A stretch of DNA of 64,000 nt from Phycisphaerae bacterium. GTDB taxonomy: Bacteria; Planctomycetota; Phycisphaerae; SM23-33. The DNA is taken from positions 10,629 through 74,628 of the forward strand of contig JASLNT010000006.1 of assembly GCA_030745875.1 (NCBI GenBank), written 5' to 3'. Positions 54,727 through 64,000 of the stretch are shown one piece after another (the stretch's first letter is position 1; each line of letters opens with the position of its first letter). Both the position numbers and the translations under genes were made by a program. The notes under the pieces are model-generated. The model ran no database searches and had not been told where the DNA came from. It saw only the letters and a program-made list of their open reading frames with translations.

Positions 54727-55464
54727 TTAACGGACAAGGCGTTTCATTTCGGCAACTGCTCGCCTTAGACCGGTGAAGACAGCCCTGGCGATGATGGAAT
54801 GTCCGATATTAAACTCACAGAATCCCTCCATTTGGGCGACGGGCTCGATATTCGTGTAGGTGAGCCCGTGTCCGGCGTGCACGATCAGTTCGGCGTCGAG
54901 CCCGGCCTGCAGACCGATATGGATCTCAGCTAGAGTCGATGCGATCAGGGCGGGGTCCGGGTTGCCTCCATCGGTTCCCAGGCAGGCGTTGGCGTAGGTT
55001 CCGGTGTGAATTTCAATCGCTTCGCATCCGGCGCGGCGGGCGGCGAGTATTTGCTCGGGAACGGGATCTATAAACGCGCTGACCGAGACGCCCGCGCCGC
55101 GAAGGGCTTCAGTGACCTCGCCGACCCGGTCGGCGTGGGCGAGTACGTCCAGTCCGCCCTCGGTGGTTATTTCCCGCCGGTTCTCGGGGACCAGGGTCGC
55201 CTGGGTCGGCGCTAACGCCAGGGCGATATCCACGATTTCCGGATCCAGCGACATTTCCATGTTGAGCTTGCAGGTGACGGTTTTCTTCAGGAGATCGGCG
55301 TCGCGGTCGCAGATGTGTCTGCGGTCTTTTCGCAGGTGGAAGGTGATACAGTCGGCTCCGGCGAGCTGTGCCTCGGCGGCCGCCCAGACGGGGTCCGGTT
55401 CGACGGTCTGTCTCGCCTGGCGAACAGTCGCCACATGATCGATATTTACGCCTAAGCCTGCCAT
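54727..55464 (-). CDS. pdxJ: pyridoxine 5'-phosphate synthase
   Basis: LGVNIDHVATVRQAR, ITFHLRKDRRHI motifs. Confidence 0.9.
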   Translation of the reverse strand: MAGLGVNIDHVATVRQARQTVEPDPVWAAAEAQLAGADCITFHLRKDRRHICDRDADLLKKTVTCKLNMEMSLDPEIVDIALALAPTQATLVPENRREITTEGGLDVLAHADRVGEVTEALRGAGVSVSAFIDPVPEQILAARRAGCEAIEIHTGTYANACLGTDGGNPDPALIASTLAEIHIGLQAGLDAELIVHAGHGLTYTNIEPVAQMEGFCEFNIGHSIIARAVFTGLRRAVAEMKRLVR

Positions 55465-55575
55465 GGTGATAATCTCCCGTTCGATCGAGTCAATTCAGGA
55501 ATCGAACGGGACAATTGTGCGCCCAAGCGGGTCGGCGGTCAAGCAATGAGTCATGAGTCGCGCCGAATAGTGCGC

Positions 55576-55616
55576 AAAAAAAAGCGGACGAGGCGCAAGT
55601 TGCTCAGACCTGCGCC
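55576..55616 (-). terminator. rho-independent terminator on the minus strand (8-bp hairpin with G-U, then U8)
   Basis: Minus-strand RNA GGCGCAGG-UCUGAGCAA-CUUGCGCC followed by UCGUCCGC UUUUUUUU; lies downstream of the repeat array and upstream of pdxJ. Confidence 0.5.
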
Positions 55617-56740
55617 ATCGCCCTTCGCCGTTAGTAGAGAATCCCACAGGCTAACGTGGGACCGTAATGGCGGGAGGCTTCAAAGGAGGAGAGAAGAAGC
55701 TGTCCGGTAGGCGATCAACTCCACCGGCCCGATTCCATGACGGACTCTCTACCGCGATAGAGAGTCTCAAATACGATGTGCAGGTCTGGAAGGAGGAAAA
55801 TGACCTTACACACGCTAAAGACTCTCGTTTCATATAGCGGTTGACCGTTCCGCGGCCCGCAAGGGAAGAAGCAAGCGGGGGGTGTCTGAACTCATCCGGT
55901 CGACCACCATCGGTATCAGTGCCTGTATTCAGTTTTAATCGTATTATTATCCCGAGCGGCGTCGGGTCTGATCTCAAAGGCAGCGAGACGCAAGTTGCTC
56001 AGACCTGCGTCATCGCTCTTCGCCTTTGACGGAAAGTTCCACTAGCCAAGTGCCGTTGCGGCGAGACGCTTCAAAGGAGGAGAGTTGAAGCTCCCAGCAG
56101 GCGCTCAACTCTGCTGGCTCGTCCTACAACAAAACTTCCGTCGGTAGAGAGTTTGTGCATGTCAACGCTGGGTAAAGGAGGAGAAACGCCCATGCGTTTG
56201 CACAAAGCTCTCGTTCTGAAGGATGATCGCGCGTTCCAAGCGCTAAGCAAGCGTACATCTTAAGCAAGCACCGGAGCGCTTCGAGCCATCCTCGTTTTCA
56301 TCACTCTTTATTATGCGAGCGTCGTATAGTCCGTCTCCCGACTTCCGCCGGGTCTGTTAGTAAGGGGACGAGAGGCAACCAGCTCACAGTTGCCTCATCG
56401 CCCTTTGCCTTTGCAGAGATACCCTCGGAGATTCCACTCCTCTGCGTGCTCCCATCCCGGGTGACGAATCACCCGCAATACGCTGGTGGGCTTTGACCTC
56501 CACCAGTAACACGCAGACTGGTAACTAAATATCTCTGCACTCCCGAAAGCCCTCAAGCAACACTGATCTATGCGTCTGGAGGGATCAGTCGGTATGGGCT
56601 ATTACCTCCACACCATGTCGCCCTCAATGGGGGCTTCCGCTTTTCGGCACATCGCCCTGCCATCCAAACGAATACCCTCCGTACCCGTTTGAAATTCAAT
56701 GTTCCGTTAGTACGACTCACCCGACCGCTTAAAAGCTGCT
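55592..56740. repeat. three ~390-bp imperfect tandem units, each with a terminal hairpin, a second hairpin at +110 and an SD-led mini-ORF at +205 to +222; candidate structured ncRNA array
   Basis: Hairpin-1 at 55592-55616, 55987-56011, 56372-56396 (stems covary, loops conserved); hairpin-2 at 55704-55727, 56094-56117, 56483-56506 (stems covary, loop GGCG(A/C)UCAACUC conserved); SD-ATG mini-ORFs at 55800, 56192, 56594. Confidence 0.5.
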
Positions 56741-57180
56741 CAAGCCGCCGGAGTGTCTGTCCGGTTCGTTCGCTCAACTGCGAGTCGAACCAAGGACCTC
56801 CACTGTCCGCCGTACGCCGGATAGACGAAATACAACGCTCCGCCCATCCTGGCTATTAACTCTTGTCTGCCCGATCCGGTTCCTCCGACGACCGCTGCGA
56901 TAACGCCAGGCCAATATCGGCCCAACCAGTGCAGCGTCTCGTCCGTTGGTTCCAGGAACTCACGGTCGATCAGCACGAACAGGTTTATCTCGCCAACAGG
57001 CGGATTGAACTTCAGTTCGCTTTGACGACGGTAAACAAGCAGACTTCCTTTATTCAGTTGTTCGAGCGACAGCGCCAGCGGCGCCGCATCGCTCAGCTCC
57101 GCACATACGGTTACGATGCGCGGTCCATCCGGTTCGGCTGACCCATAGGCCGAGCCATCTTTCGGCTCCCTCACGTCCAC
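56740..57180 (-). CDS. hypothetical protein (146 aa), directly upstream (minus-strand sense) of the repeat array
   Basis: Long ORF with GC-typical codon use; no recognised motif; its 3' end contains a hairpin-2-like inverted repeat (GGTTCG...CTCAACTGCGAG...CGAACC). Confidence 0.35.
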   Translation of the reverse strand: MDVREPKDGSAYGSAEPDGPRIVTVCAELSDAAPLALSLEQLNKGSLLVYRRQSELKFNPPVGEINLFVLIDREFLEPTDETLHWLGRYWPGVIAAVVGGTGSGRQELIARMGGALYFVYPAYGGQWRSLVRLAVERTNRTDTPAA

Positions 57181-57834
57181 AACTAGGCTCCTCGATCAAA
57201 TTCCCTATTCCGAGTCCCTCGACTCGTAAGTGCGTACATACCCGAAGCGCTATTCCTGCAGGCAACCCCTCGCCTGTAGAGAACGCTGGCGCGACCAATA
57301 GTTGGAGAATGTAGAGAGACATAGAAACGCTGTCTCGCAACACAGTCCCGGGGATGTCCTTACCTCCGGCAATTAAAACTGCAAATGGTTCTCCAGAAAA
57401 GATCCTCGCACGTATCGGCTATCTTTACACGGTAGACATATTGCAATGGCGGCGCCAAACAGCGGAGCGTGTGATAAGAAAAAAACAAACAACAGTATTC
57501 GACAGGAAAACACGGGGTAATTATTCACGGAATAATTCTTAGCTCAAAATCTCGCGTAATACAGCGCAGCGTGCGGCGCTGCAAGGTGCGACAGTAGCGC
57601 AGCAGATAGCAGCATCAAGTGTCGCATGATATGCGCATATATCGACGTAACGTCTTGCAAAGAGACGCACTGCGTTCAACTGTCGCGCAAGTTCAAAGAG
57701 CGTCGAACGCGACGCGTGAGCGGAGGCGTGTTGCGGGCTAACTAGAATTTAAAAAATATACTGGACAAAATTCAAAGCAGATCACTTGAACTCCTGATCT
57801 CAATTGCTACGATATATAATGATGTAAGACGTAA

Positions 57835-59943
57835 TTGGCGCCCCGGCCGGCCGCTATACTGATGGAGCAGGTTATGAGCGAAGGTGAAAACTGCGACCTG
57901 GGTGACTCCGCTTCCACTGGGAAGGGACTGTTGTCGCCGATAATCAAAATTCTTCTGGGCAGACGTCTGCGCCCGCTTCTTATCCTGTCGCTTTATTGTT
58001 TTCTGATTTTTCCCGTCTTCCGGGTCGCGGTGTTCCTCGCCACCCGCGAAGCCGTCCAGAACACCACCGTCTGGGAAATCGGCGTGTGTTTTGGCTACGG
58101 GTTCCAGTTTGACGCGGTGGTCGTCGGATATACGGTGCTTCCCATGGTGCTGGCGCTCGGGCTCGCGCCGGGCCCGACCTTCTTCAACAAGGTGTTCCGA
58201 CGAACCGTTACGATCTACATCACGGTGGTTATGACGGTTGTTATGATTCTGGAAATCGTCAACGCGGTTTTCATGGTGAATTTCCGGCGCCGCCTGAACT
58301 GGGCGTCGCTCAACTATCCGAAGTATTACCGTGAGACGGCTACGTTTATCTGGGATCAGTATAATCTCTGGGTGATTCTGCTGATTCCGCTGCTTGCTGG
58401 AGGCGTGTATCTGCTGTACCGAGTGCTTCGAAATTATTGCTGGCGCGGGCGGTTGACTTTCAATTCACCGCCGAAGCGGCTGGCGTTGACTGCGGTGACG
58501 ATCGCTTTGTGCATCATCGCGTGTCGCCCGACATTCGGGCACTTTCCGCTCCGCCCGGGTTCTGAGGAGCATTCGTCCAACAATATGGTCAACCAGGCGT
58601 CCACCAATACGCTGTTTTCGCTGTGGCATGCGTTCATGTCGATGCTCGAGGACGGTGACGACGAGAAGAAGTACTACGACCTTCCGTCTGTGGATGACGC
58701 CCGGAAGGTTGTGAGCACACTGTTGTTGCAGGAAGGAGACGAGCTGGCCCCGACGAACTCCAGACCGTTGCGAAGACGGATTGTAAGCGGGCGAAAAATG
58801 CTCGATCTCAATGTTGTTGTCATAATCATGGAAGGGCAGGCGAATGAACCGGTCGGGGCGCTGGGATACGGCGGGCCTCACACGCCTGAGCTGGACAGGA
58901 TATGCAGGGAGGGGATGTTCTTCGAGCAGTTGTACGCCACCGGCGCCAGAACCTCCAGAGGCTTGACCGGAGTGCTTGTCGGGCATCCGGACCTCGGGGG
59001 AAGAACGCTGCTGGAACGGGAGGATGCAGCAGGGCGGTTCCAGACTCTGCCCGGGGTGATAGCGGCGCGGGGATATCGAACGATCTTCATGACCGGAGGC
59101 GACCCGAACTACGACAACATGAAGGCTTTTCTCGCCGCCGGAGGCGTGGAAACAGTCATCGGACAGGAGCAGATCGGTCCGAAATCCGCCGGCGGGTGGG
59201 GCGTGCCCGACGAAATGATATTCCACAAGGCTCACGAGACGTTCGTGTCCATGGGCGACGAGAAGTTCTTCGCCGCCGTCCTGACCGTTTCGAACCATCA
59301 ACCGTACCACGTTCCTCAAGGCCGCACCGCGATGCTTCCCAACGACACCGAAGCGAACAGAATGCTCAACGCGTATCGATACGCCGACTGGGCTCTGGGC
59401 GAATTCTTCCGCGAAGCCCGCCAGGCCGACTACTTCAAGAACACTCTGTTCGTCATCGTTTCCGACCACGGACACGGGGAGTACCTTGACCAGGGGCTTG
59501 CGATCGACGTTCCGGGTTACAGGCTTCCCTGCGTCTTCTACGCGCCGGGCATCATATCGCCCCGAACCGTCTCGACGATCGCCTCCCAGACCGACATCGC
59601 CCCGACGCTGCTGGGCATGCTGGGCGGAACGTACGAACACAGCTTTATCGGCCGCGACATTCTTCGAGTCGCCCCGGGCGACGGATTCGCCCTGCTCCAC
59701 GAAGACAGGCACCTGGCGCTGTTGCGACCGGGCCGCGTGTGGATCACCGGACCGATAAACAGGCGAGCTGCGCCCCGCCCGGTCCCGAAACTGTACAGCG
59801 TTACTCTCGACAGTATGGTTCCGTTCGCCCAGGCGGACGCCGATCCTCTGGAATGTGCAACCATGCGACGCGACTTGTTGTCGCTTTACACGATAGCGCT
59901 TCAGCAGTACTTGAACGTCAAGCAGAAAGGAAGTCAGCATTGA
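57835..59943 (+). CDS. LTA-synthase / phosphoglycerol-transferase-family membrane sulfatase-fold enzyme
   Basis: 5 N-terminal TMs plus extracytoplasmic alkaline-phosphatase-superfamily domain (VVIIMEGQANE..., FVIVSDHGHGEY). Confidence 0.8.
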   Translation: MAPRPAAILMEQVMSEGENCDLGDSASTGKGLLSPIIKILLGRRLRPLLILSLYCFLIFPVFRVAVFLATREAVQNTTVWEIGVCFGYGFQFDAVVVGYTVLPMVLALGLAPGPTFFNKVFRRTVTIYITVVMTVVMILEIVNAVFMVNFRRRLNWASLNYPKYYRETATFIWDQYNLWVILLIPLLAGGVYLLYRVLRNYCWRGRLTFNSPPKRLALTAVTIALCIIACRPTFGHFPLRPGSEEHSSNNMVNQASTNTLFSLWHAFMSMLEDGDDEKKYYDLPSVDDARKVVSTLLLQEGDELAPTNSRPLRRRIVSGRKMLDLNVVVIIMEGQANEPVGALGYGGPHTPELDRICREGMFFEQLYATGARTSRGLTGVLVGHPDLGGRTLLEREDAAGRFQTLPGVIAARGYRTIFMTGGDPNYDNMKAFLAAGGVETVIGQEQIGPKSAGGWGVPDEMIFHKAHETFVSMGDEKFFAAVLTVSNHQPYHVPQGRTAMLPNDTEANRMLNAYRYADWALGEFFREARQADYFKNTLFVIVSDHGHGEYLDQGLAIDVPGYRLPCVFYAPGIISPRTVSTIASQTDIAPTLLGMLGGTYEHSFIGRDILRVAPGDGFALLHEDRHLALLRPGRVWITGPINRRAAPRPVPKLYSVTLDSMVPFAQADADPLECATMRRDLLSLYTIALQQYLNVKQKGSQH

Positions 59944-60535: not shown

Positions 60536-60754
60536 TCAGAAGATCGCGTAGATGAACGGCGCCAGGGCGCTGTTTGTTGACAGAAGCACCAGGAGGCTCA
60601 CCACCAGCAGGACAACAAGTATCGGTATCAGCCACCATTTCTTGTTGTGACAGACAAAGTCCCACAATTCGCGCAGAAAAGAAGGGGGGCGAGTGTCGGC
60701 CTGTTCGGCAAAACTATCGCTTCGGCGGTCAGTGGTTTTCGGTTCTTTGTCCAT
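60536..60754 (-). CDS. DUF5989 (SxtK-like) small membrane protein
   Basis: LRELWDFVCHNKKWWLIPILVVLLVVSLLVLL matches the family that accompanies SxtJ/carbamoyltransferase genes. Confidence 0.6.
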   Translation of the reverse strand: MDKEPKTTDRRSDSFAEQADTRPPSFLRELWDFVCHNKKWWLIPILVVLLVVSLLVLLSTNSALAPFIYAIF

Positions 60755-60757
60755 AGT

Positions 60758-61165
60758 TCAGAACTGACGGAAATATCGCTCAGGGGCGGTTTGTTTGCGT
60801 TCTCGCCAGTAACTCCCGGCGGCCCGATCGGCACGTCGTTGCATCGGGTCCCGGCCGAACAGTCGCATAATGACGCCCGTGGGAGTTACTACAACATAGT
60901 ATACAATTCCCAGGACAATCAGCGAGATAACTATTCCAATTGGAGCGGCGAGATAGCTCATGCCAAGATAGACAATGCGAACGCAAGGTGGTCTGACCGC
61001 TCCCAGGCCCGCCACAGCGGCGCCCGACACCCAGATCAGAATGGCGGTCGTCAATGATCCGGTCGACTCCAGCACCAGGTATCCGACCAGTGCTGCAAAA
61101 ACACCGCCCGCCAGCGAAAACTGACACAACGTGCGGGGCGACGGGTTTTTGTTTATCTCGATCAT
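60758..61165 (-). CDS. SxtJ-family membrane protein
   Basis: 3-4 TM small protein immediately downstream of the carbamoyltransferase in the same orientation. Confidence 0.6.
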   Translation of the reverse strand: MIEINKNPSPRTLCQFSLAGGVFAALVGYLVLESTGSLTTAILIWVSGAAVAGLGAVRPPCVRIVYLGMSYLAAPIGIVISLIVLGIVYYVVVTPTGVIMRLFGRDPMQRRADRAAGSYWRERKQTAPERYFRQF

Positions 61166-61175
61166 TGTTAGTTAG

Positions 61176-63014
61176 TCAGTCAAGGTCGAATTTCGCAAGG
61201 TATTCGTCCACGTCGTGCGTCCGGACGGACGGCTGGTCGGCCTTGCAGAGCACGAATCGCTCCATTACCAGCACGTCCATATTGGTCGCCATGAAGCAGT
61301 TGTACGCATCCGATGGCGTGCAGACTATCGGCTCGCCCCGAACGTTAAAACTCGTATTGACCAGCAGCGGGCAGCCGGTCTTGCGCTCGAAAGCCTTCAG
61401 TAACTTGCAGTATCGCCCGTGCCTGGCCTCGTCGACGGTTTGCAGCCGCGCCGAATAATCCACATGAGTGATCGCCGGAACCACAGATCTCCGCACGGAT
61501 CTCTTGTCCAGCCCGCCTGCGGATTCTCCCTCCCCCGCGGGCTCGATTCGCTTGTCTCCCGCCACAGGCGCCGTCAGCAGCATATACGGGCTCGACAGGC
61601 CCTTACGTGTCTGGAAGAACTCACCGGCCCGATCGTCCAGCACCGACGGAGCAAACGGTCGGAACGACTCGCGGAACTTTATCTTGCGGTTCATCACTGA
61701 TTGCATCGTCGGGCTTCTTGCATCTCCGAGTATGCTTCGGCAGCCCAAGGCTCTCGGGCCGAATTCCATGCGGCCTTGGAACCATCCGACGATCTTCTCA
61801 CCTGACAGCAATTCAGCGGTGTGATTGCAGAGGGAGTCATCGTCGCCGAATTCCTTGTATATCGCGCCGGCGTCCTTCAGGAACGCTTCGATTTGCTCCG
61901 GCTCGAAACTCGGACCAAGGAGCGATCCGGATTGGCTGTCTTCAGGCAGGGCGGACCGGGGATTGTCCAGCAGTTGATGCCATATCAGCATCGCAGCGCC
62001 AATCGCGCCTCCGGCGTCTCCGGCGGCCGGTTGGATCCATATGCGATCGAACGGTCCTTCCCGAACGAGGAGCCCGTTGGCTACGCAGTTCAACGCCACG
62101 CCCCCAGCCAGGCACAGATTCTCCATCCCGGTCTGGTCGTGAACGTGTCTGGCGATTCGCAGAATGATCTCTTCGGTGACCTTCTGTACCGAAGCGGCCA
62201 GATCCATCTCACGCTGGGTTATCGGGGTTTCGGGCTTTCTGGGCGGACCGTCGAAAAGGGCGGTGAACTTCCGCGAAGTCATCGTGAGCCCGCAGCAGTA
62301 GTTGAAGAACGACATGTCCATGTGAAACGAACCGTCATCCTTTATGTCGATCAGCTTGTCGGTGATAAGGTCGACGTACCTGGGCGTCCCGTACGGCGCC
62401 AGCCCCATCAGCTTGTACTCTCCGCTGTTTACCTTGAACCCGCAGAAGTACGTGAACGCCGAGTACAACAGTCCAAGCGAATGGGGGAAGTGCAGTTCGT
62501 GAGTCAGCGAGATGCGATTACCGCGACCGACGCCATAGCTCGCGGTGGCCCATTCGCCAACACCGTCCAGCGTAATAATTGCAGCCTCCTGGAACGGCGA
62601 GGGGAAGAACGCGCTGGCTGCGTGCGATTCGTGGTGTTCGGGGAAGATATATCGTTTCTTGTAGGCTTTGTTCAGCCCGCGATCGAGTTGGCGTCTGGTG
62701 TGGAGTTTCTGTCGCAACCATAGGGGCATTGCTTTTGCGAAACTGCGAAAACCCAGCGGGGCGAAGGCGAGGTACGTCTCGAGAATCCTGTCGAATTTCA
62801 GCAGCGGTTTGTCGTAGAAACCCACGTAGTCCAGATCCCCAGCGGTCAGGGACGCCGCTGACAGGCAGTATTCGATGGCGCGTGAGGGAAAGGCCTGATC
62901 GTGTTTCTTTCGGGTGAACCGCTCCTCCTGGGCGGCGGCGACCAAGCGTCCGTCGACGAGCAGCGCTGCAGCCGAATCGTGGTAAAACGCCGATATGCCT
63001 AGTATTGCGGTCAT
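61176..63014 (-). CDS. carbamoyltransferase (NodU/CmcH/SxtI family)
   Basis: N-terminus MTAILGISAFYHDSAAALLVDGRLVAAAQEERFTRKKHD is the canonical carbamoyltransferase start; ~612 aa. Confidence 0.85.
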   Translation of the reverse strand: MTAILGISAFYHDSAAALLVDGRLVAAAQEERFTRKKHDQAFPSRAIEYCLSAASLTAGDLDYVGFYDKPLLKFDRILETYLAFAPLGFRSFAKAMPLWLRQKLHTRRQLDRGLNKAYKKRYIFPEHHESHAASAFFPSPFQEAAIITLDGVGEWATASYGVGRGNRISLTHELHFPHSLGLLYSAFTYFCGFKVNSGEYKLMGLAPYGTPRYVDLITDKLIDIKDDGSFHMDMSFFNYCCGLTMTSRKFTALFDGPPRKPETPITQREMDLAASVQKVTEEIILRIARHVHDQTGMENLCLAGGVALNCVANGLLVREGPFDRIWIQPAAGDAGGAIGAAMLIWHQLLDNPRSALPEDSQSGSLLGPSFEPEQIEAFLKDAGAIYKEFGDDDSLCNHTAELLSGEKIVGWFQGRMEFGPRALGCRSILGDARSPTMQSVMNRKIKFRESFRPFAPSVLDDRAGEFFQTRKGLSSPYMLLTAPVAGDKRIEPAGEGESAGGLDKRSVRRSVVPAITHVDYSARLQTVDEARHGRYCKLLKAFERKTGCPLLVNTSFNVRGEPIVCTPSDAYNCFMATNMDVLVMERFVLCKADQPSVRTHDVDEYLAKFDLD

Positions 63015-63160
63015 GTCTACATGGATACTATCGACTGCAACGGGCCGCGCCGCCTGTAGCGATTCTAATTCAATTACCGCAGACCTGCAAGACGGGCGGC
63101 CAATTGCGTTCGCGCAAATCGTGATTGACAAGCACCCCCGAGAGCATAGAATCGTCGCAA

Positions 63161-64000
63161 ATGGAATCGGAAAGCCCCACACGATCCGGCGCGCCTGCAT
63201 CTTCGTCCAGACGGCGCCTTGTCGGCTGGCGGAAATGGGTGACGCGGTTCCTGATAGCGATTCTCTCACCGGTTCTGTTCCTTCTCATCCTTGAGGGCGG
63301 ATTGCTCTTATTCGGTTACGGTTACTCCACCAACTTCTTCGTGAAGGACGAAGCAACCGGGCGGTACGCCTCCAATGAGAAGTTCTCCTGGCGATTCTAC
63401 GCCCCGACAATCGCAAAGAATCCGCTCCCGTTTTCGATCGCCTCGCCCAAACCGAAAGGCGTCTTTCGCATTTTCATTCTCGGAAGCTCCGCCGCCTGGG
63501 GCACGCCGTCTCCATCTTTCAGCTTCTCCCGCATACTGTCGGTAATGCTTTGCGAGCGATATCCCGATGTGAAATTCGAAGTGGTCAATACCGCGATAAT
63601 GGGCGTCAATTCGCACATTGTCCTGCCGATCGCTCGCGACTGCGCCGATTTCGAACCGGACATGTTCATCGTGTATCTGGGCAATAATGAAGTGATCGGA
63701 CTTCACGGGCCTAAAACGCACGGCGGCGGGGCGATGCCCGGCATGGCGTTCATACGAGCGAGTCTATGGATCAAGTCGACGCGATGCGGACAGTTGATCG
63801 GTTCACTGCTGGGCGGTTCCGGGCGGAACTCCGCTCCGTCCAAACCGCAGGACCTCGAATACTTCCGCAAGCACCTGACCGCCGCCGATGATCCTGACCG
63901 CCTGGCGGTTTACGAGAATTTCAGCGTTAATCTGAAGGATATAATCAGTGTCGGGCTCGACAGCGGGGCGCGCGTGCTGCTGGCGACGGTTGCAGTCAAC
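63161..64000 (+). CDS. membrane-anchored SGNH/GDSL-hydrolase-like protein, 3' partial (runs off the window)
   Basis: My own translation (not in the ORF track because no stop in window): MESESPTRSGAPASSSRRRLVGWRKWVTRFLIAILSPVLFLLILEGG...FRIFILGSSAAWG...IVYLGNNEV; divergent from the carbamoyltransferase gene. Confidence 0.5.
   Translation, partial: MESESPTRSGAPASSSRRRLVGWRKWVTRFLIAILSPVLFLLILEGGLLLFGYGYSTNFFVKDEATGRYASNEKFSWRFYAPTIAKNPLPFSIASPKPKGVFRIFILGSSAAWGTPSPSFSFSRILSVMLCERYPDVKFEVVNTAIMGVNSHIVLPIARDCADFEPDMFIVYLGNNEVIGLHGPKTHGGGAMPGMAFIRASLWIKSTRCGQLIGSLLGGSGRNSAPSKPQDLEYFRKHLTAADDPDRLAVYENFSVNLKDIISVGLDSGARVLLATVAVN

What the first reader, a model, noticed from the sequence alone, without database searches (positions are those of the whole stretch)
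55570..56800. Array of three ~390-bp tandem units with covarying hairpins, terminators and SD-led mini-ORFs in a 1.2 kb gene-free region
No ORF of 60 aa or more with coding character lies between pdxJ and the LTA-synthase gene; instead the DNA is organised as three imperfect tandem units with a 385-395 bp period. Each unit begins on the + strand with a 25-nt hairpin (55592, 55987, 56372). Read on the minus strand these are perfect 8-bp stems with G-U pairs (GCGCAGG/CUUGCGC twice, AGGCAAC/GUUGCCU once), a conserved loop (UsUGAGCwr) and a conserved 5' flank (GGCRAAGRGCGAUG). The copy nearest pdxJ is followed by U8, a genuine terminator. At +110 in every unit there is a second hairpin whose stem changes completely between units (CCGGU/ACCGG, CCAGCA/UGCUGG, CUGGUGG/CCACCAG) while the loop is conserved (GGCG(A/C)UCAACUC). 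Compensatory stem changes with conserved loops are the hallmark of a selected RNA structure. At +205 to +222 every unit has a strong Shine-Dalgarno (AGGAGG) with ATG opening a 14-, 23- or 32-codon ORF (MTLHTLKTLVSYSG; MRLHKALVLKDDRAFQALSKRTS; MGYYLHTMSP...), sharing only an LH(T/K) element. This could be a family of structured small RNAs ending in terminators, or a tandem set of small-protein or leader-peptide genes with regulatory hairpins. Either would be undescribed as far as I can tell.
Basis: seen in the sequence. Interest (0 to 1): 0.8.

Follow-up and report, generated by a model that had tools for sequence, protein, structure and literature searches.

The report
Triplicated structured RNA behind sigma-54 gene
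The 1.2 kb "empty" stretch encodes, on the minus strand, a previously undescribed, highly structured non-coding RNA of Phycisphaerae built from three ancient tandem copies, probably a sigma-54-controlled regulatory RNA that displays ribosome-binding-site-complementary loops; the mini-ORFs on the other strand are not real genes.

Summary
The three ~390-nt tandem units are real. The conserved 52-nt cores lie 395 and 385 nt apart and occur nowhere else in the 64 kb window. The RNA strand is the window minus strand.

About 29 distinct related loci from Phycisphaerae MAGs and metagenomes carry 1, 2 or 3 such units. Across 51 distinct units, 96.9% of cells in the four core helices are paired, against 40-51% in slid controls. 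Twenty-six of 32 pairs show compensatory changes. G-U pairs outnumber A-C by 137 to 10, which fixes the strand.

In the window's clade the three units are orthologous position by position. Only the last keeps a U-tract terminator (U8 at 55576-55583).

The RNA directly follows a conserved 146-aa orphan receiver-like gene, which sits behind a conserved sigma-54 promoter. In distant relatives a receiver-less sigma-54 activator gene lies just upstream.

Hairpin loops carry CCUCC (anti-Shine-Dalgarno-like) motifs, six in 1.16 kb. The mini-ORF start codons are not conserved.

There is no Rfam hit and I found no description in the literature. [quoted passage not shown] The function remains inferred.

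The parts
57442..57457 (-). Sigma-54 type promoter (TGGCGC-CGCCA-TTGCA), about 265 nt upstream of the start of the 146-aa gene
   Evidence: Pattern hit. On its own this is not enriched (8 hits against 10.8 expected in the window). However, TTGGC(A/G)C-N5-TTGC(A/T) sits at the same relative position (-1013 to -1066 from the first T hairpin) in every 3-unit locus with enough upstream DNA. It sits at -808 to -843 in most of the single- and multi-unit relatives with enough upstream DNA (at -1375 in L059); none was found in L023, L028, L044, L050, L081 or L085.
57181..57441 (-). Conserved, apparently structured 5' UTR ending in the RBS box UUUGAUCGAGGAGCC
   Evidence: Alignment A7 of 8 orthologues gives 52 predicted pairs, 16 with compensatory changes. 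Not analysed further.
56740..57180 (-). 146-aa orphan receiver-like (CheY fold) protein gene, directly upstream of the RNA
   Evidence: 31 homologues at 56-99% identity, none with a Pfam family. The AlphaFold model has pLDDT 80 and a (beta-alpha)5 topology. Foldseek best hits are receiver domains of the NtrC-family activators HupR, LuxO, DctD and NtrC1 (E 1e-6 to 1e-5, TM 0.66-0.71).
55576..56739 (-). Whole non-coding RNA region: three tandem units from the stop codon of the 146-aa gene to the U8 tract
   Evidence: Six orthologues align over the whole length with 78% column identity. Nucleotide identity to the window is 0.73-0.81, higher than the adjacent CDS at 0.66-0.76.
56355..56739 (-). 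The core model hit is 56362-56548.
   Evidence: Covariance model hit of 126 bits. Orthologous to unit 1 of other species (0.81 identity) and distinct from units 2 and 3 (0.54-0.56).
56563..56588 (-). Unit 1 hairpin CUGAUC/GAUCAG with a CCCUCC-containing loop
   Evidence: Read from the sequence. Conserved as GAUCCCUCCAGAC in A2. CCUCC site at 56578-56582.
56412..56541 (-). Unit 1 helix P1 enclosing hairpin A (56483-56506, loop AGGUCAAAGC) and a B-position hairpin without CCUCC (56454-56479)
   Evidence: Coordinates mapped from A4. Pair statistics.
56364..56409 (-). Unit 1 T hairpin (GGCAAAGGGCGAUG-stem-UGUGAGCUG-stem-CUCGUCCCC), with no U-tract
   Evidence: -28 kcal/mol for the 71-nt segment, z -3.2.
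56336..56354 (-). Post-T hairpin CCCGGC/GUCGGG between units 1 and 2, followed by an AU-rich spacer
   Evidence: Helix in A6: 6 pairs, 2 of them with compensatory changes. Coordinates.
55969..56335 (-). Unit 2. The core model hit is 55977-56151.
   Evidence: Covariance model hit of 156 bits. 0.84 identity to unit 2 of other species.
56147..56213 (-). Unit 2 helix P0 (GAGAGC/ACUCUC) enclosing hairpin B' (56169-56192, loop CGUUUCUCCUCCUUUA)
   Evidence: Consensus structure of A6, in which 11 of 22 pairs show compensatory changes. Coordinates read.
56028..56142 (-). Unit 2 helix P1 enclosing hairpin A (56094-56117, loop AGUUGAGCGC) and hairpin B (56068-56091, loop CUCUCCUCCU)
55979..56024 (-). 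Unit 2 T hairpin, with no U-tract (followed by CCUUUGAGAUC)
   Evidence: -31.5 kcal/mol, z -4.1.
55950..55968 (-). Post-T hairpin CCCGAC/CUCGGG between units 2 and 3, followed by an AU-rich spacer containing UUAAAACUGAAUAC
55576..55949 (-). The core model hit is 55582-55762.
   Evidence: Covariance model hit of 149 bits.
55760..55826 (-). Unit 3 helix P0 (GAGAGUC/GACUCUC) enclosing hairpin B' (55782-55806, loop AUUUUCCUCCUUCCA)
   Evidence: Coordinates read.
55633..55753 (-). Unit 3 helix P1 enclosing hairpin A (55704-55727, loop AGUUGAUCGC) and hairpin B (55677-55700, loop CUCUCCUCCU)
55576..55629 (-). Unit 3 T hairpin (55584-55629) plus U8 (55576-55583): the intrinsic terminator of the whole transcript
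   Evidence: A U6-U10 tract follows the last hairpin in all the full-length 3-unit loci whose 3' end is on the contig. The simple terminator scan missed it, probably because the loop it sees exceeds its 3-8 nt limit.

Best explanation
SHOWN:
- The 55576-56739 stretch is the template, on the minus strand, of a conserved and highly structured non-coding RNA family restricted so far to Phycisphaerae (Planctomycetota).
- The basic unit is a 330-390 nt multi-domain RNA. It contains a 5' helix domain and a helix P0 holding a hairpin with a CU-rich loop. It also has a multibranch domain P1 and a strongly conserved terminal hairpin T.
- P1 holds hairpin A (loop AGWUGAGCGC), hairpin B (loop CUCUCCUCCU) and a variable hairpin C.
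- T reads AAGGCGAAGGGCGAUG-stem-yUGAGCaa-stem-CUCGCCC. In single-unit relatives it is followed by a U-tract.
- In the window's clade the unit was triplicated long ago. The three paralogues are each conserved position by position, and only the last keeps the U-tract.

INFERRED (about 0.6):
- The array is transcribed together with the upstream 146-aa receiver-like gene from the conserved sigma-54 promoter, as a long structured 3' UTR ending at U8.
- It may be cut at the AU-rich spacers into unit-size RNAs.

INFERRED (about 0.35-0.4):
- The RNA acts in trans as a base-pairing regulator.
- Its five loop-exposed CCUCC(U) motifs mimic the 3' end of 16S rRNA and pair with Shine-Dalgarno regions of target mRNAs. 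One candidate target is its own operon's RBS, GAUCGAGGAGCC. Pairing would block translation.
- The three units raise dosage or valency and have diversified: unit 1 has lost the B-loop motif.
- This is how the alphaproteobacterial cuckoo/CcsR tandem sRNAs are thought to work.
For: Repeat and uniqueness.

Homologous loci:
- The same three-unit array lies downstream of the 146-aa gene homologue in syntenic contigs.
- Genome and metagenome pattern scans give further loci with 1, 2 or 3 units.

Structure, on a MAFFT alignment of 51 distinct units:
- 96.9% of cells are paired, against 40-51% when the partner is slid by 1-3 columns.
- 26 of 32 pairs have changes on both sides, and 0 of 500 shuffles reach the observed values.
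- The 5' half has helix P0 and hairpin B' with covariation.

Strand:
- G-U 137 cells against A-C 10. Pairing is 96.9% on this strand against 89.1% on the other.
- The U-tract follows the last hairpin on this strand only.
- The strand is the same as that of the flanking genes and the sigma-54 promoter.

Selection:
- RNA-region identity is 0.73-0.81, above the neighbouring CDS at 0.66-0.76.
- Same-position units across species are 0.78-0.84 identical, against 0.54-0.73 for paralogues.

Context:
- The sigma-54 promoter is conserved.
- The upstream protein has a receiver fold.
- A receiver-less sigma-54 activator (Sigma54_activat + HTH_8) lies immediately upstream in distant loci.
- In single-unit loci the RNA's first conserved box starts within 20 nt of the stop codon. 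This favours co-transcription.

Anti-SD motifs:
- Six CCUCC sites on the RNA strand in 1.16 kb, against about 1 per kb per strand in the window.
- Five of them lie in loops of covarying hairpins.
- CUCCUCC is 90% or more conserved in the B loop.

Precedent: cuckoo/CcsR RNAs (PMC4615179, PMC8034643).
Against: - There is no expression data. Transcript ends, processing and co-transcription are all inferred.
- No target is known, and 5-7 nt of SD complementarity gives no specificity on its own.
- The units carry far more conserved structure than a simple base-pairing sRNA needs: hairpin A with its UGAGC loop, and the nearly invariant AAGGCGAAGGGCGAUG flank of hairpin T. This hints at protein binding or a tertiary fold.
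- Unit 1 lacks the B-loop CCUCC and instead has three GGAGG motifs on the RNA strand. The CCUCC loops could therefore be engaged intramolecularly.
- In L064 and L059 each unit has its own U-tract. In L085 no receiver-like gene precedes the RNA, and a TATAAT box lies upstream. Independent transcription of units therefore occurs in some lineages.
- No sigma-54 promoter lies directly in front of any unit.
Confidence: 0.5

Rival explanations
1. Protein-binding or scaffold RNA. The repeated, sequence-invariant loops (UGAGC in hairpins A and T; CCUCC in B and B') and the invariant T-hairpin flank would be binding sites. The partner could be the co-encoded receiver-like protein or a global RNA-binding protein. 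The RNA would then sequester that protein or act as part of a ribonucleoprotein, in the manner of CsrB/RsmZ or 6S-type sponges.
For: - Loop and flank sequences are nearly invariant across about 29 loci while the stems covary.
- The units are large and multi-domain.
- The same loop motifs recur 2-3 times per unit and the unit number varies from 1 to 3. Multivalency of this kind is typical of sponges.
- The RNA is almost always linked with one small protein gene.
- In the CcsR system the co-encoded protein CcaF1 binds the RNA (PMC8034643).
Against: - A receiver fold is not a known RNA-binding fold.
- L085 has the RNA without the receiver-like gene.
- No candidate RNA-binding protein gene is conserved nearby.
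Confidence: 0.2
2. Cis-acting 3' UTR. The structured array mainly controls stability or translation of the receiver-like mRNA it is attached to. For example, the CCUCC loops could fold back on the operon's own RBS (UUUGAUCGAGGAGCC), giving feedback on a sigma-54 signalling module. There would be no trans targets.
For: - The RNA starts at the stop codon of the gene.
- The RBS box GACCGAGGAGCC of the gene in the window clade is identical to the first conserved box of the RNA in single-unit loci.
- GAGGAG is complementary to CUCCUC in the B loops.
Against: - 1.16 kb of conserved structure in three maintained paralogues is excessive for a stability element.
- Some relatives have separately terminated units (L064, L059) or lack the gene altogether (L085).
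Confidence: 0.12
3. Plus-strand products: either tandem small-protein or leader-peptide genes with AGGAGG Shine-Dalgarno sites, or a CsrA-type sponge with GGA-containing hairpin loops.
For: In the window, AGGAGG is followed by ATG three times. On the plus strand the hairpin loops read AAGGAGGAG.
Against: - Start codons are absent in orthologues (ATG becomes AGG, AAG, ATA or GCG) and ORF lengths run 2 to more than 50 codons.
- G-U against A-C is 137 to 10, in favour of the minus strand.
- On the plus strand the U8 becomes an A8 placed before the hairpin.
- Promoter, gene and terminator are all oriented on the minus strand.
Confidence: 0.03
4. Leader, riboswitch or attenuator controlling the downstream pdxJ gene.
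For: The array ends in a terminator about 110 nt upstream of pdxJ on the same strand.
Against: - The downstream gene is not conserved. It is pdxJ in part of the clade and an opposite-strand LptD-like gene in L006/L007. Elsewhere it is an FGGY kinase, an S41 peptidase or a PEP-CTERM protein.
- The constant neighbour is the upstream gene.
- A sigma-70-like promoter match lies between the terminator and pdxJ.
- There is no Rfam riboswitch hit.
Confidence: 0.03
5. A neutral, decaying tandem duplication, or a dispersed REP/MITE-like repeat, with no function.
For: The copies are diverged (55-73% identical within the genome).
Against: - Each copy is conserved with its orthologue at 78-84%, above the level of the adjacent coding sequence.
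- Compensatory changes maintain the helices.
- The element occurs only at this locus in 64 kb.
Confidence: 0.01

Closest known systems
Cuckoo / CcsR RNAs of Alphaproteobacteria (RSs0680a-d = CcsR1-4 of Rhodobacter sphaeroides; SmelA075/C14 family) - PMC4615179, PMC8034643
   Same: - Homologous RNA modules in tandem clusters of variable copy number.
- Hairpin loops exposing a CU-rich anti-Shine-Dalgarno-like motif (CCUCCUCCC there; CUCUCCUCCU, UUUCCUCCUU and CCCUCC here).
- The cluster lies directly behind a small protein gene and is co-transcribed with it from an alternative-sigma-factor promoter.
- There is one terminator-like hairpin after the cluster.
- Maturation from the 3' UTR occurs at U/AU-rich sites. 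That is shown for CcsR and only inferred here.
   Different: - No sequence or Rfam-level homology.
- Cuckoo RNAs are 2-4 adjacent simple hairpins, small sRNAs. Here each unit is 330-390 nt with extra conserved domains: P1, hairpin A with its UGAGC loop, and the invariant T hairpin.
- The exact CCUCCUCCC 9-mer is absent from the window.
- The promoter type is sigma-54 rather than RpoHI/HII.
- The partner protein has a receiver fold rather than DUF1127.
- The phylum is Planctomycetota.
NrsZ of Pseudomonas (PMC4253122)
   Same: - A sigma-54/NtrC-linked regulatory RNA built from repeated similar modules.
- The number of modules varies between species (1 to 6).
- The modules are separated by spacer hairpins and processed into single units.
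- The functional motif sits in the hairpin loop.
   Different: - NrsZ modules are about 40-60 nt single stem-loops with the loop motif ACAGGCAG.
- NrsZ's sigma-54 promoter directly precedes the RNA.
- NrsZ activates translation by freeing an SD.
- No homology.
Pxr sRNA of myxobacteria (PMC5568312)
   Same: - Encoded next to a sigma-54 activator gene (nla19).
- Tandem paralogues occur in some genera.
- The paralogues diverge more from each other than orthologues do.
   Different: - Pxr is about 100 nt with 2-3 stem-loops.
- Every Pxr paralogue has its own sigma-54 promoter. Here none is found in front of the units.
- No homology.
3'-UTR-derived sRNAs such as GlnZ from the sigma-54/NtrC-dependent glnA mRNA (PMC9731577)
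   Same: The regulatory RNA shares promoter and terminator with an upstream coding gene whose transcription depends on sigma-54.
   Different: GlnZ is a single short Hfq-dependent sRNA. Here there is a 1.16 kb triplicated structured RNA, and processing has not been shown.
Large 'ornate' bacterial ncRNAs of unknown or partly known function (OLE, GOLLD, ROOL, raiA) - from my own knowledge, not tested beyond Rfam
   Same: Unusually long, with many conserved helices supported by covariation and invariant loop nucleotides. Lineage-restricted and discovered by comparative genomics.
   Different: No Rfam match to any of them. Internal tandem repetition of a whole unit and the sigma-54/receiver gene context are not features of those families.

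Membership tests
Any Rfam 15 family (4227 models) | Score at or near the family's gathering threshold | tested here: not met
   Permissive cmscan (E up to 10) of 55300-57900 gave only three chance-level eukaryotic hits of 14-19 bits. Nothing passed the gathering threshold in the whole window, nor in four related loci.
Cuckoo / CcsR RNA family | Consensus of 2-4 adjacent hairpins of similar size (PMC4615179) | tested here: not met
   The CU-loop hairpins are not adjacent. They are embedded in larger domains (P0, P1) together with other conserved hairpins.
Cuckoo / CcsR RNA family | Every hairpin loop carries CCUCCUCCC | tested here: not met
   The loops read CUCUCCUCCU, UUUUCCUCCUUCC, UUUCUCCUCCUUUA and CCCUCC. 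The exact 9-mer is absent from the region. Hairpins A, C and T carry other loops. Some relatives have CCCUCCUCCUCC.
Cuckoo / CcsR RNA family | Clustered tandem copies, co-transcribed with an adjacent small protein gene and processed from its UTR | tested here: inconclusive
   The tandem copies and the adjacency to a small gene are shown. Co-transcription and processing cannot be tested without RNA data.
NrsZ | Sigma-54 promoter directly upstream of the RNA, and about 40-60 nt stem-loop modules with loop motif ACAGGCAG | tested here: not met
   The sigma-54 promoter lies upstream of the protein gene, and none lies in front of any unit. The modules are 330-390 nt with different loop motifs.
Pxr | About 100-nt triple stem-loop RNA, each paralogue with its own sigma-54 promoter, downstream of nla19 | tested here: not met
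   A sigma-54 activator gene is adjacent only in distant relatives and is separated from the RNA by the receiver-like gene.
Intrinsic (Rho-independent) terminator | G+C-rich stem-loop immediately followed by a U-tract on the transcribed strand | tested here: met
   Met for the last hairpin only: a stem of about 15 bp, then GC, then U8 at 55576-55583. A U6-U10 tract is conserved after the last hairpin in relatives. Hairpins T1 and T2 lack the U-tract.
CsrB/RsmZ-type CsrA sponge | Multiple GGA motifs in hairpin loops of the transcribed strand | tested here: not met
   The GGA/AGGAGG motifs are in loops only on the plus strand, which is not the structured strand (G-U 137 against A-C 10). On the RNA strand the loops are CCUCC.
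Small-protein / leader-peptide genes | Conserved start codon, reading frame and length in orthologues | tested here: not met
   ATG is kept in 1 of 8, 1 of 8 and 2 of 8 loci. Lengths run 2 to more than 50 codons.
Riboswitch / attenuator of the downstream gene | Conserved association with a functionally coherent downstream gene | tested here: not met
   The downstream genes differ: pdxJ, an opposite-strand LptD-like gene, an FGGY kinase, an S41 peptidase and a PEP-CTERM protein.
Response-regulator receiver domain (the 146-aa neighbour) | (beta-alpha)5 fold, phospho-acceptor Asp after beta3, and conserved Lys after beta5 | tested here: inconclusive
   The fold is met. An Asp at the end of beta3 (D72) is nearly invariant. 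The Lys position after beta5 reads Y/D/H-P, judged by eye. There is no Pfam Response_reg hit. The protein is probably an atypical or pseudo-receiver.

The most novel reading that the evidence does not exclude
The region encodes a new class of large 'ornate' RNA. It would be a 1.16 kb sigma-54-induced transcript whose three internally repeated 390-nt domains fold into a pseudo-trimeric architecture. It would present up to five copies of the 16S rRNA anti-Shine-Dalgarno sequence. Such an RNA could act as a ribosome-3'-end mimic that titrates SD-bearing mRNAs, or factors that recognise the anti-SD, on a signal. It might work together with an orphan pseudo-receiver protein. That would make it a global translation-control device rather than an ordinary target-specific sRNA.
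Probability: 0.12. Interest if true: 0.85.

Novelty: new variant of a known kind. Interest (0 to 1): 0.65.

Why it matters
- Regulatory RNAs of Planctomycetota are almost unexplored. My literature searches found no described sRNA of this phylum matching this element.
- This is a strongly supported new RNA family, and the evidence is purely comparative: about 29 distinct loci, 26 of 32 covarying pairs, and each paralogue conserved above the level of the adjacent coding sequence.
- Its size is unusual: 330-390 nt per unit and 1.16 kb as a triplicate.
- It sits in a clear regulatory frame. The order is a sigma-54 promoter, an orphan receiver-like gene, then the RNA. In relatives a receiver-less sigma-54 activator lies next door.
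- It gives a concrete entry point to sigma-54 signalling output in Phycisphaerae.
- It may be an independent evolutionary invention of the tandem RNA with anti-SD loops processed from a small-protein mRNA, a design so far known from Alphaproteobacteria. That would make the generality of this mechanism testable.
- It also shows that apparent 'SD + mini-ORF' patterns can be the antisense shadow of CCUCC-loop RNAs.

Tried and rejected
- Tandem Repeats Finder found nothing, because the copies are too diverged.
- The simple terminator scan found none in the region, although the U8 terminator is evident. The T hairpin probably falls outside the scan's loop limit of 3-8 nt.
- Rfam at a permissive threshold gave only chance hits.
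- Single-sequence folding does not discriminate the strands, because both strands fold well. The strand was settled only by the G-U/A-C asymmetry across homologues.
- I tested whether the hairpin A loop (GGAGW) kisses the hairpin B loop (WCUCC). I tabulated the variable base next to each motif and found no covariation: U/U 12, A/C 9, A/U 6. The contact is neither supported nor excluded.
- I looked for a sigma-54 promoter directly in front of the units, as in Pxr and NrsZ. There is none.
- I looked for sigma-70-like promoters in the AU-rich spacers. There is a recurrent (A/C)CNGAAUA motif about 20 nt before each unit's first box, but no convincing -35/-10 pair.
- The mini-ORFs are rejected.
- I considered a T-box. 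The GGUGGU in the 5' box of unit 3 resembles the T-box sequence, but there is no Rfam T-box hit and no amino-acid-related downstream gene.
- A hairpin spanning the stop codon of the 146-aa gene is conserved but has little covariation, and its UGAGC loop is not universal.
- Literature searches for Planctomycetes or Phycisphaerae sRNAs gave nothing relevant.


Full report
**1. What is in the sequence**

Between pdxJ (54727-55464, minus) and a 146-aa ORF (56740-57180, minus) lie 1275 nt without any conserved ORF. Repeat analysis finds a 52-nt core in three direct copies at 55582, 55977 and 56362, spaced 395 and 385 nt. A degenerate core pattern hits only these three sites in the 64 kb window, with 0 expected. 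Tandem Repeats Finder and Rfam find nothing.

ORF 56740-57180 is a real gene, with 31 homologues at 56-99% identity, so the finding's interval runs into coding sequence.

**2. Relatives**

I looked up contigs that encode homologues of the 146-aa protein. Four further syntenic groups of contigs appeared in which that gene is followed by 1.2-1.5 kb of gene-free DNA. Each contains exactly three copies of the core, spaced 382-401 nt, on the strand of the gene. Only the last copy is followed by U6-U8. Six orthologous regions align end to end with 78% column identity.

One exact-pattern scan each of the genome and the metagenome collections brought more loci, all from Phycisphaerae or Planctomycetota MAGs and environmental contigs:
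- Single units with a U-tract: L013, L034, L038, L044, L048, L077, L085.
- Pairs spaced about 435 nt: L023, L028, L046.
- Triplets: L056, L059, L064, L081.
- In L064 every unit has its own U-tract.

A covariance model built from 51 distinct units finds exactly three hits in the window, all on the minus strand (126-156 bits), and none elsewhere in the 64 kb.

**3. Structure and strand**

The consensus was derived on a MAFFT alignment that was not fitted to any structure. The 180-nt core has these elements:
- A closing helix P1.
- Hairpin A, loop AGWUGAGCGC.
- Hairpin B, loop with CUCUCCUCCU.
- A variable hairpin C.
- The terminal hairpin T, which has an almost invariant 5' flank AAGGCGAAGGGCGAUG and loop yUGAGCaa.

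Of 1622 pair cells, 96.9% form standard pairs, against 40-51% when the 3' partners are slid by 1-3 columns. Twenty-six of 32 pairs show changes on both sides, and no shuffle out of 500 reaches any observed measure.

The 5' half of the units adds further elements, again with compensatory changes:
- A hairpin just after the preceding T hairpin.
- An AU-rich spacer.
- A helix P0 (GAGAGUC/GACUCUC) that encloses another hairpin with a CU-rich loop (UUUCUCCUCCUUUAC or UUUUCCUCCUUCC).

G-U cells number 137 and A-C cells 10. The helices are therefore 96.9% paired on this strand and only 89.1% on the complement. Together with the position of the U-tract, this fixes the RNA strand as the window minus strand.

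**4. Evolution**

In the window's clade the units are orthologous by position. Unit i of one species is 78-84% identical to unit i of another. Paralogues in one genome are 54-73% identical. The triplication therefore predates these species, and each copy has been kept.

Nucleotide identity of the RNA region to the window (0.73-0.81) exceeds that of the adjacent coding gene (0.66-0.76).

The internal T hairpins end in CCUUAC or CCUUUGAG where single-unit relatives have CCUUUUUU. I read them as decayed terminators that now allow read-through (inference).

**5. Context**

The 146-aa protein has no Pfam family. It is modelled with confidence (pLDDT 80) as a (beta-alpha)5 protein. Its best structural matches are receiver domains of the NtrC-family sigma-54 activators HupR, LuxO, DctD and NtrC1. 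The Asp after beta3 is kept, and the Lys after beta5 appears to be replaced.

A canonical sigma-54 promoter, TTGGC(A/G)C-N5-TTGC(A/T), lies upstream of this gene in nearly every locus with enough sequence. In the window it is at 57442-57457, minus strand. The 260-nt leader between promoter and gene is itself conserved.

In distant relatives the gene immediately upstream is a sigma-54 activator that lacks a receiver domain (Sigma54_activat + HTH_8).

In single-unit loci the first conserved box of the RNA begins within 20 nt of the stop codon. No sigma-54 promoter precedes any unit. The simplest reading is one sigma-54-dependent transcript: leader, receiver-like gene, RNA unit(s), terminator.

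There are exceptions. L064 and L059 have a U-tract after every unit. L085 has no receiver-like gene and a TATAAT box upstream.

Downstream genes are unrelated between loci. The RNA is therefore not a leader of pdxJ.

**6. The mini-ORFs**

The plus-strand AGGAGG boxes are the complement of the conserved CCUCC loop motifs. The frames run 2 to more than 50 codons. These are not genes.

**7. How it probably works**

The following is shown:
- There are six CCUCC sites on the RNA strand within 1.16 kb, against about one per kb per strand in the window.
- Five of them sit in loops of covarying hairpins.
- CUCCUCC is 90% or more conserved in the B loop.
- CCUCCUU is the core of the 16S rRNA 3' end. 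This is established knowledge; the organism's own 16S is not in the window.

I therefore favour (about 0.35-0.4) a trans-acting regulator whose loops pair with Shine-Dalgarno regions. It would be made under sigma-54 control and possibly cut into unit-size RNAs at the AU-rich spacers.

Alternatives:
- A protein-binding or scaffold RNA (0.2). The invariant UGAGC loops and the T flank argue for this.
- A purely cis-acting 3' UTR that feeds back on the operon's own RBS (0.12). In the window clade that RBS box, GACCGAGGAGCC, is identical to the first box of the RNA in other clades.
- Several small-probability readings, listed under the rival explanations.

Unit 1 carries three GGAGG motifs on the RNA strand, while units 2 and 3 carry the CCUCC loops. 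Intramolecular masking is therefore possible. My one test of a loop-loop contact showed no covariation.

**8. Comparison with known systems**

The closest working analogue is the cuckoo/CcsR family of Alphaproteobacteria. These are tandem homologous sRNAs whose hairpin loops carry the anti-SD-like CCUCCUCCC. [quoted passage not shown] One terminator-like hairpin follows the cluster (PMC4615179, PMC8034643).

The present RNA is not a member of that family. It has no Rfam or sequence similarity, its loop hairpins are neither adjacent nor uniform, the exact motif is absent, and its units are several times larger with additional conserved domains.

NrsZ (PMC4253122) and Pxr (PMC5568312) share the sigma-54 link, the modular or tandem build and the variable copy number. 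They differ in size, motif and promoter placement.

**9. Verdict**

This is a real and strongly supported RNA family that, as far as Rfam 15 and the searchable literature show, has not been described. It is a new variant of the tandem modular regulatory RNA theme, unusual for its size and for its sigma-54/orphan-receiver context. Function and transcript architecture remain inferred, because no expression data were available to me.

Noticed in passing
window 57181-57457 (minus): A conserved sigma-54 promoter is followed by a roughly 260-nt conserved leader with predicted helices (for example UGGAGAA/UUCUCCA and GCCGGAGGUAAGGAUAUCCCCGGG) before the 146-aa gene. Distant relatives have only about 45 nt there. 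This may be a second regulatory RNA element.
   Followed up: partly
window 56740-57180 (minus): The 146-aa protein is an orphan receiver-fold protein with no Pfam hit. It is closest in structure to the receiver domains of NtrC-family activators. It keeps the Asp after beta3 but apparently lacks the conserved Lys after beta5, so it may be a pseudo-receiver.
   Followed up: yes
L023:6888-7958 (minus), L064:2349-3407 (minus), L077:4317-5357 (plus): In distant relatives a sigma-54 activator without any receiver domain (AAA+ plus HTH_8, about 350 aa) lies directly upstream of the receiver-like gene. This looks like an NtrC-type regulator split into two genes in reversed order. The window's clade has no such gene adjacent.
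   Followed up: partly
window 57189-57203 (minus); L044, L048, L064 at the RNA 5' ends: The RBS box of the 146-aa gene (UUUGAYCGAGGAGCC) is nearly identical to the first conserved box (UUGACCGAGGAGCC) of the RNA in single-unit loci. It is complementary to the CUCCUC of the RNA loops.
   Followed up: no
window 56497-56501, 56605-56609, 56676-56680 (CCTCC on plus = GGAGG on the RNA strand): The 5'-most unit carries three GGAGG motifs on the RNA strand, whereas units 2 and 3 carry the CCUCC loops. Intramolecular GGAGG-CCUCC masking between units is conceivable.
   Followed up: no
window 55743-55766: A near-perfect palindrome (GACTCTCTACCG/CGATAGAGAGTC) lets the 3' arm of helix P0 pair with the 5' arm of helix P1 of unit 3. 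This is an alternative fold that competes with the consensus structure and appears in the single-sequence MFE.
   Followed up: no
L085 (oriented 1550-2125): One relative has the RNA without a receiver-like gene upstream. A TATAAT box lies about 200 nt before the conserved part, which suggests an independently transcribed copy.
   Followed up: partly
L012 and L028 (contigs of one MAG, binchicken_co17_320): The same MAG carries two separate loci of the RNA family, so some genomes hold more than one array.
   Followed up: no
window 56720-56757 (minus): A conserved hairpin (CCGGCRGC/GCYGUCGG) holds the stop codon of the 146-aa gene in its loop. It has few compensatory changes, and the loop is UGAGC-like in most loci but not all.
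   Followed up: partly
window 60536-63269 (minus): A three-gene set runs carbamoyltransferase (Carbam_trans_N/C), then an SxtJ-family protein, then DUF5989, according to the precomputed Pfam marks on the source contig. It is also present next to the locus in relatives.
   Followed up: no
window 57354-57542 (plus): The 62-aa gene called on the source contig lies antisense to the sigma-54 promoter and leader and has no Pfam hit. It is probably a spurious call.
   Followed up: no
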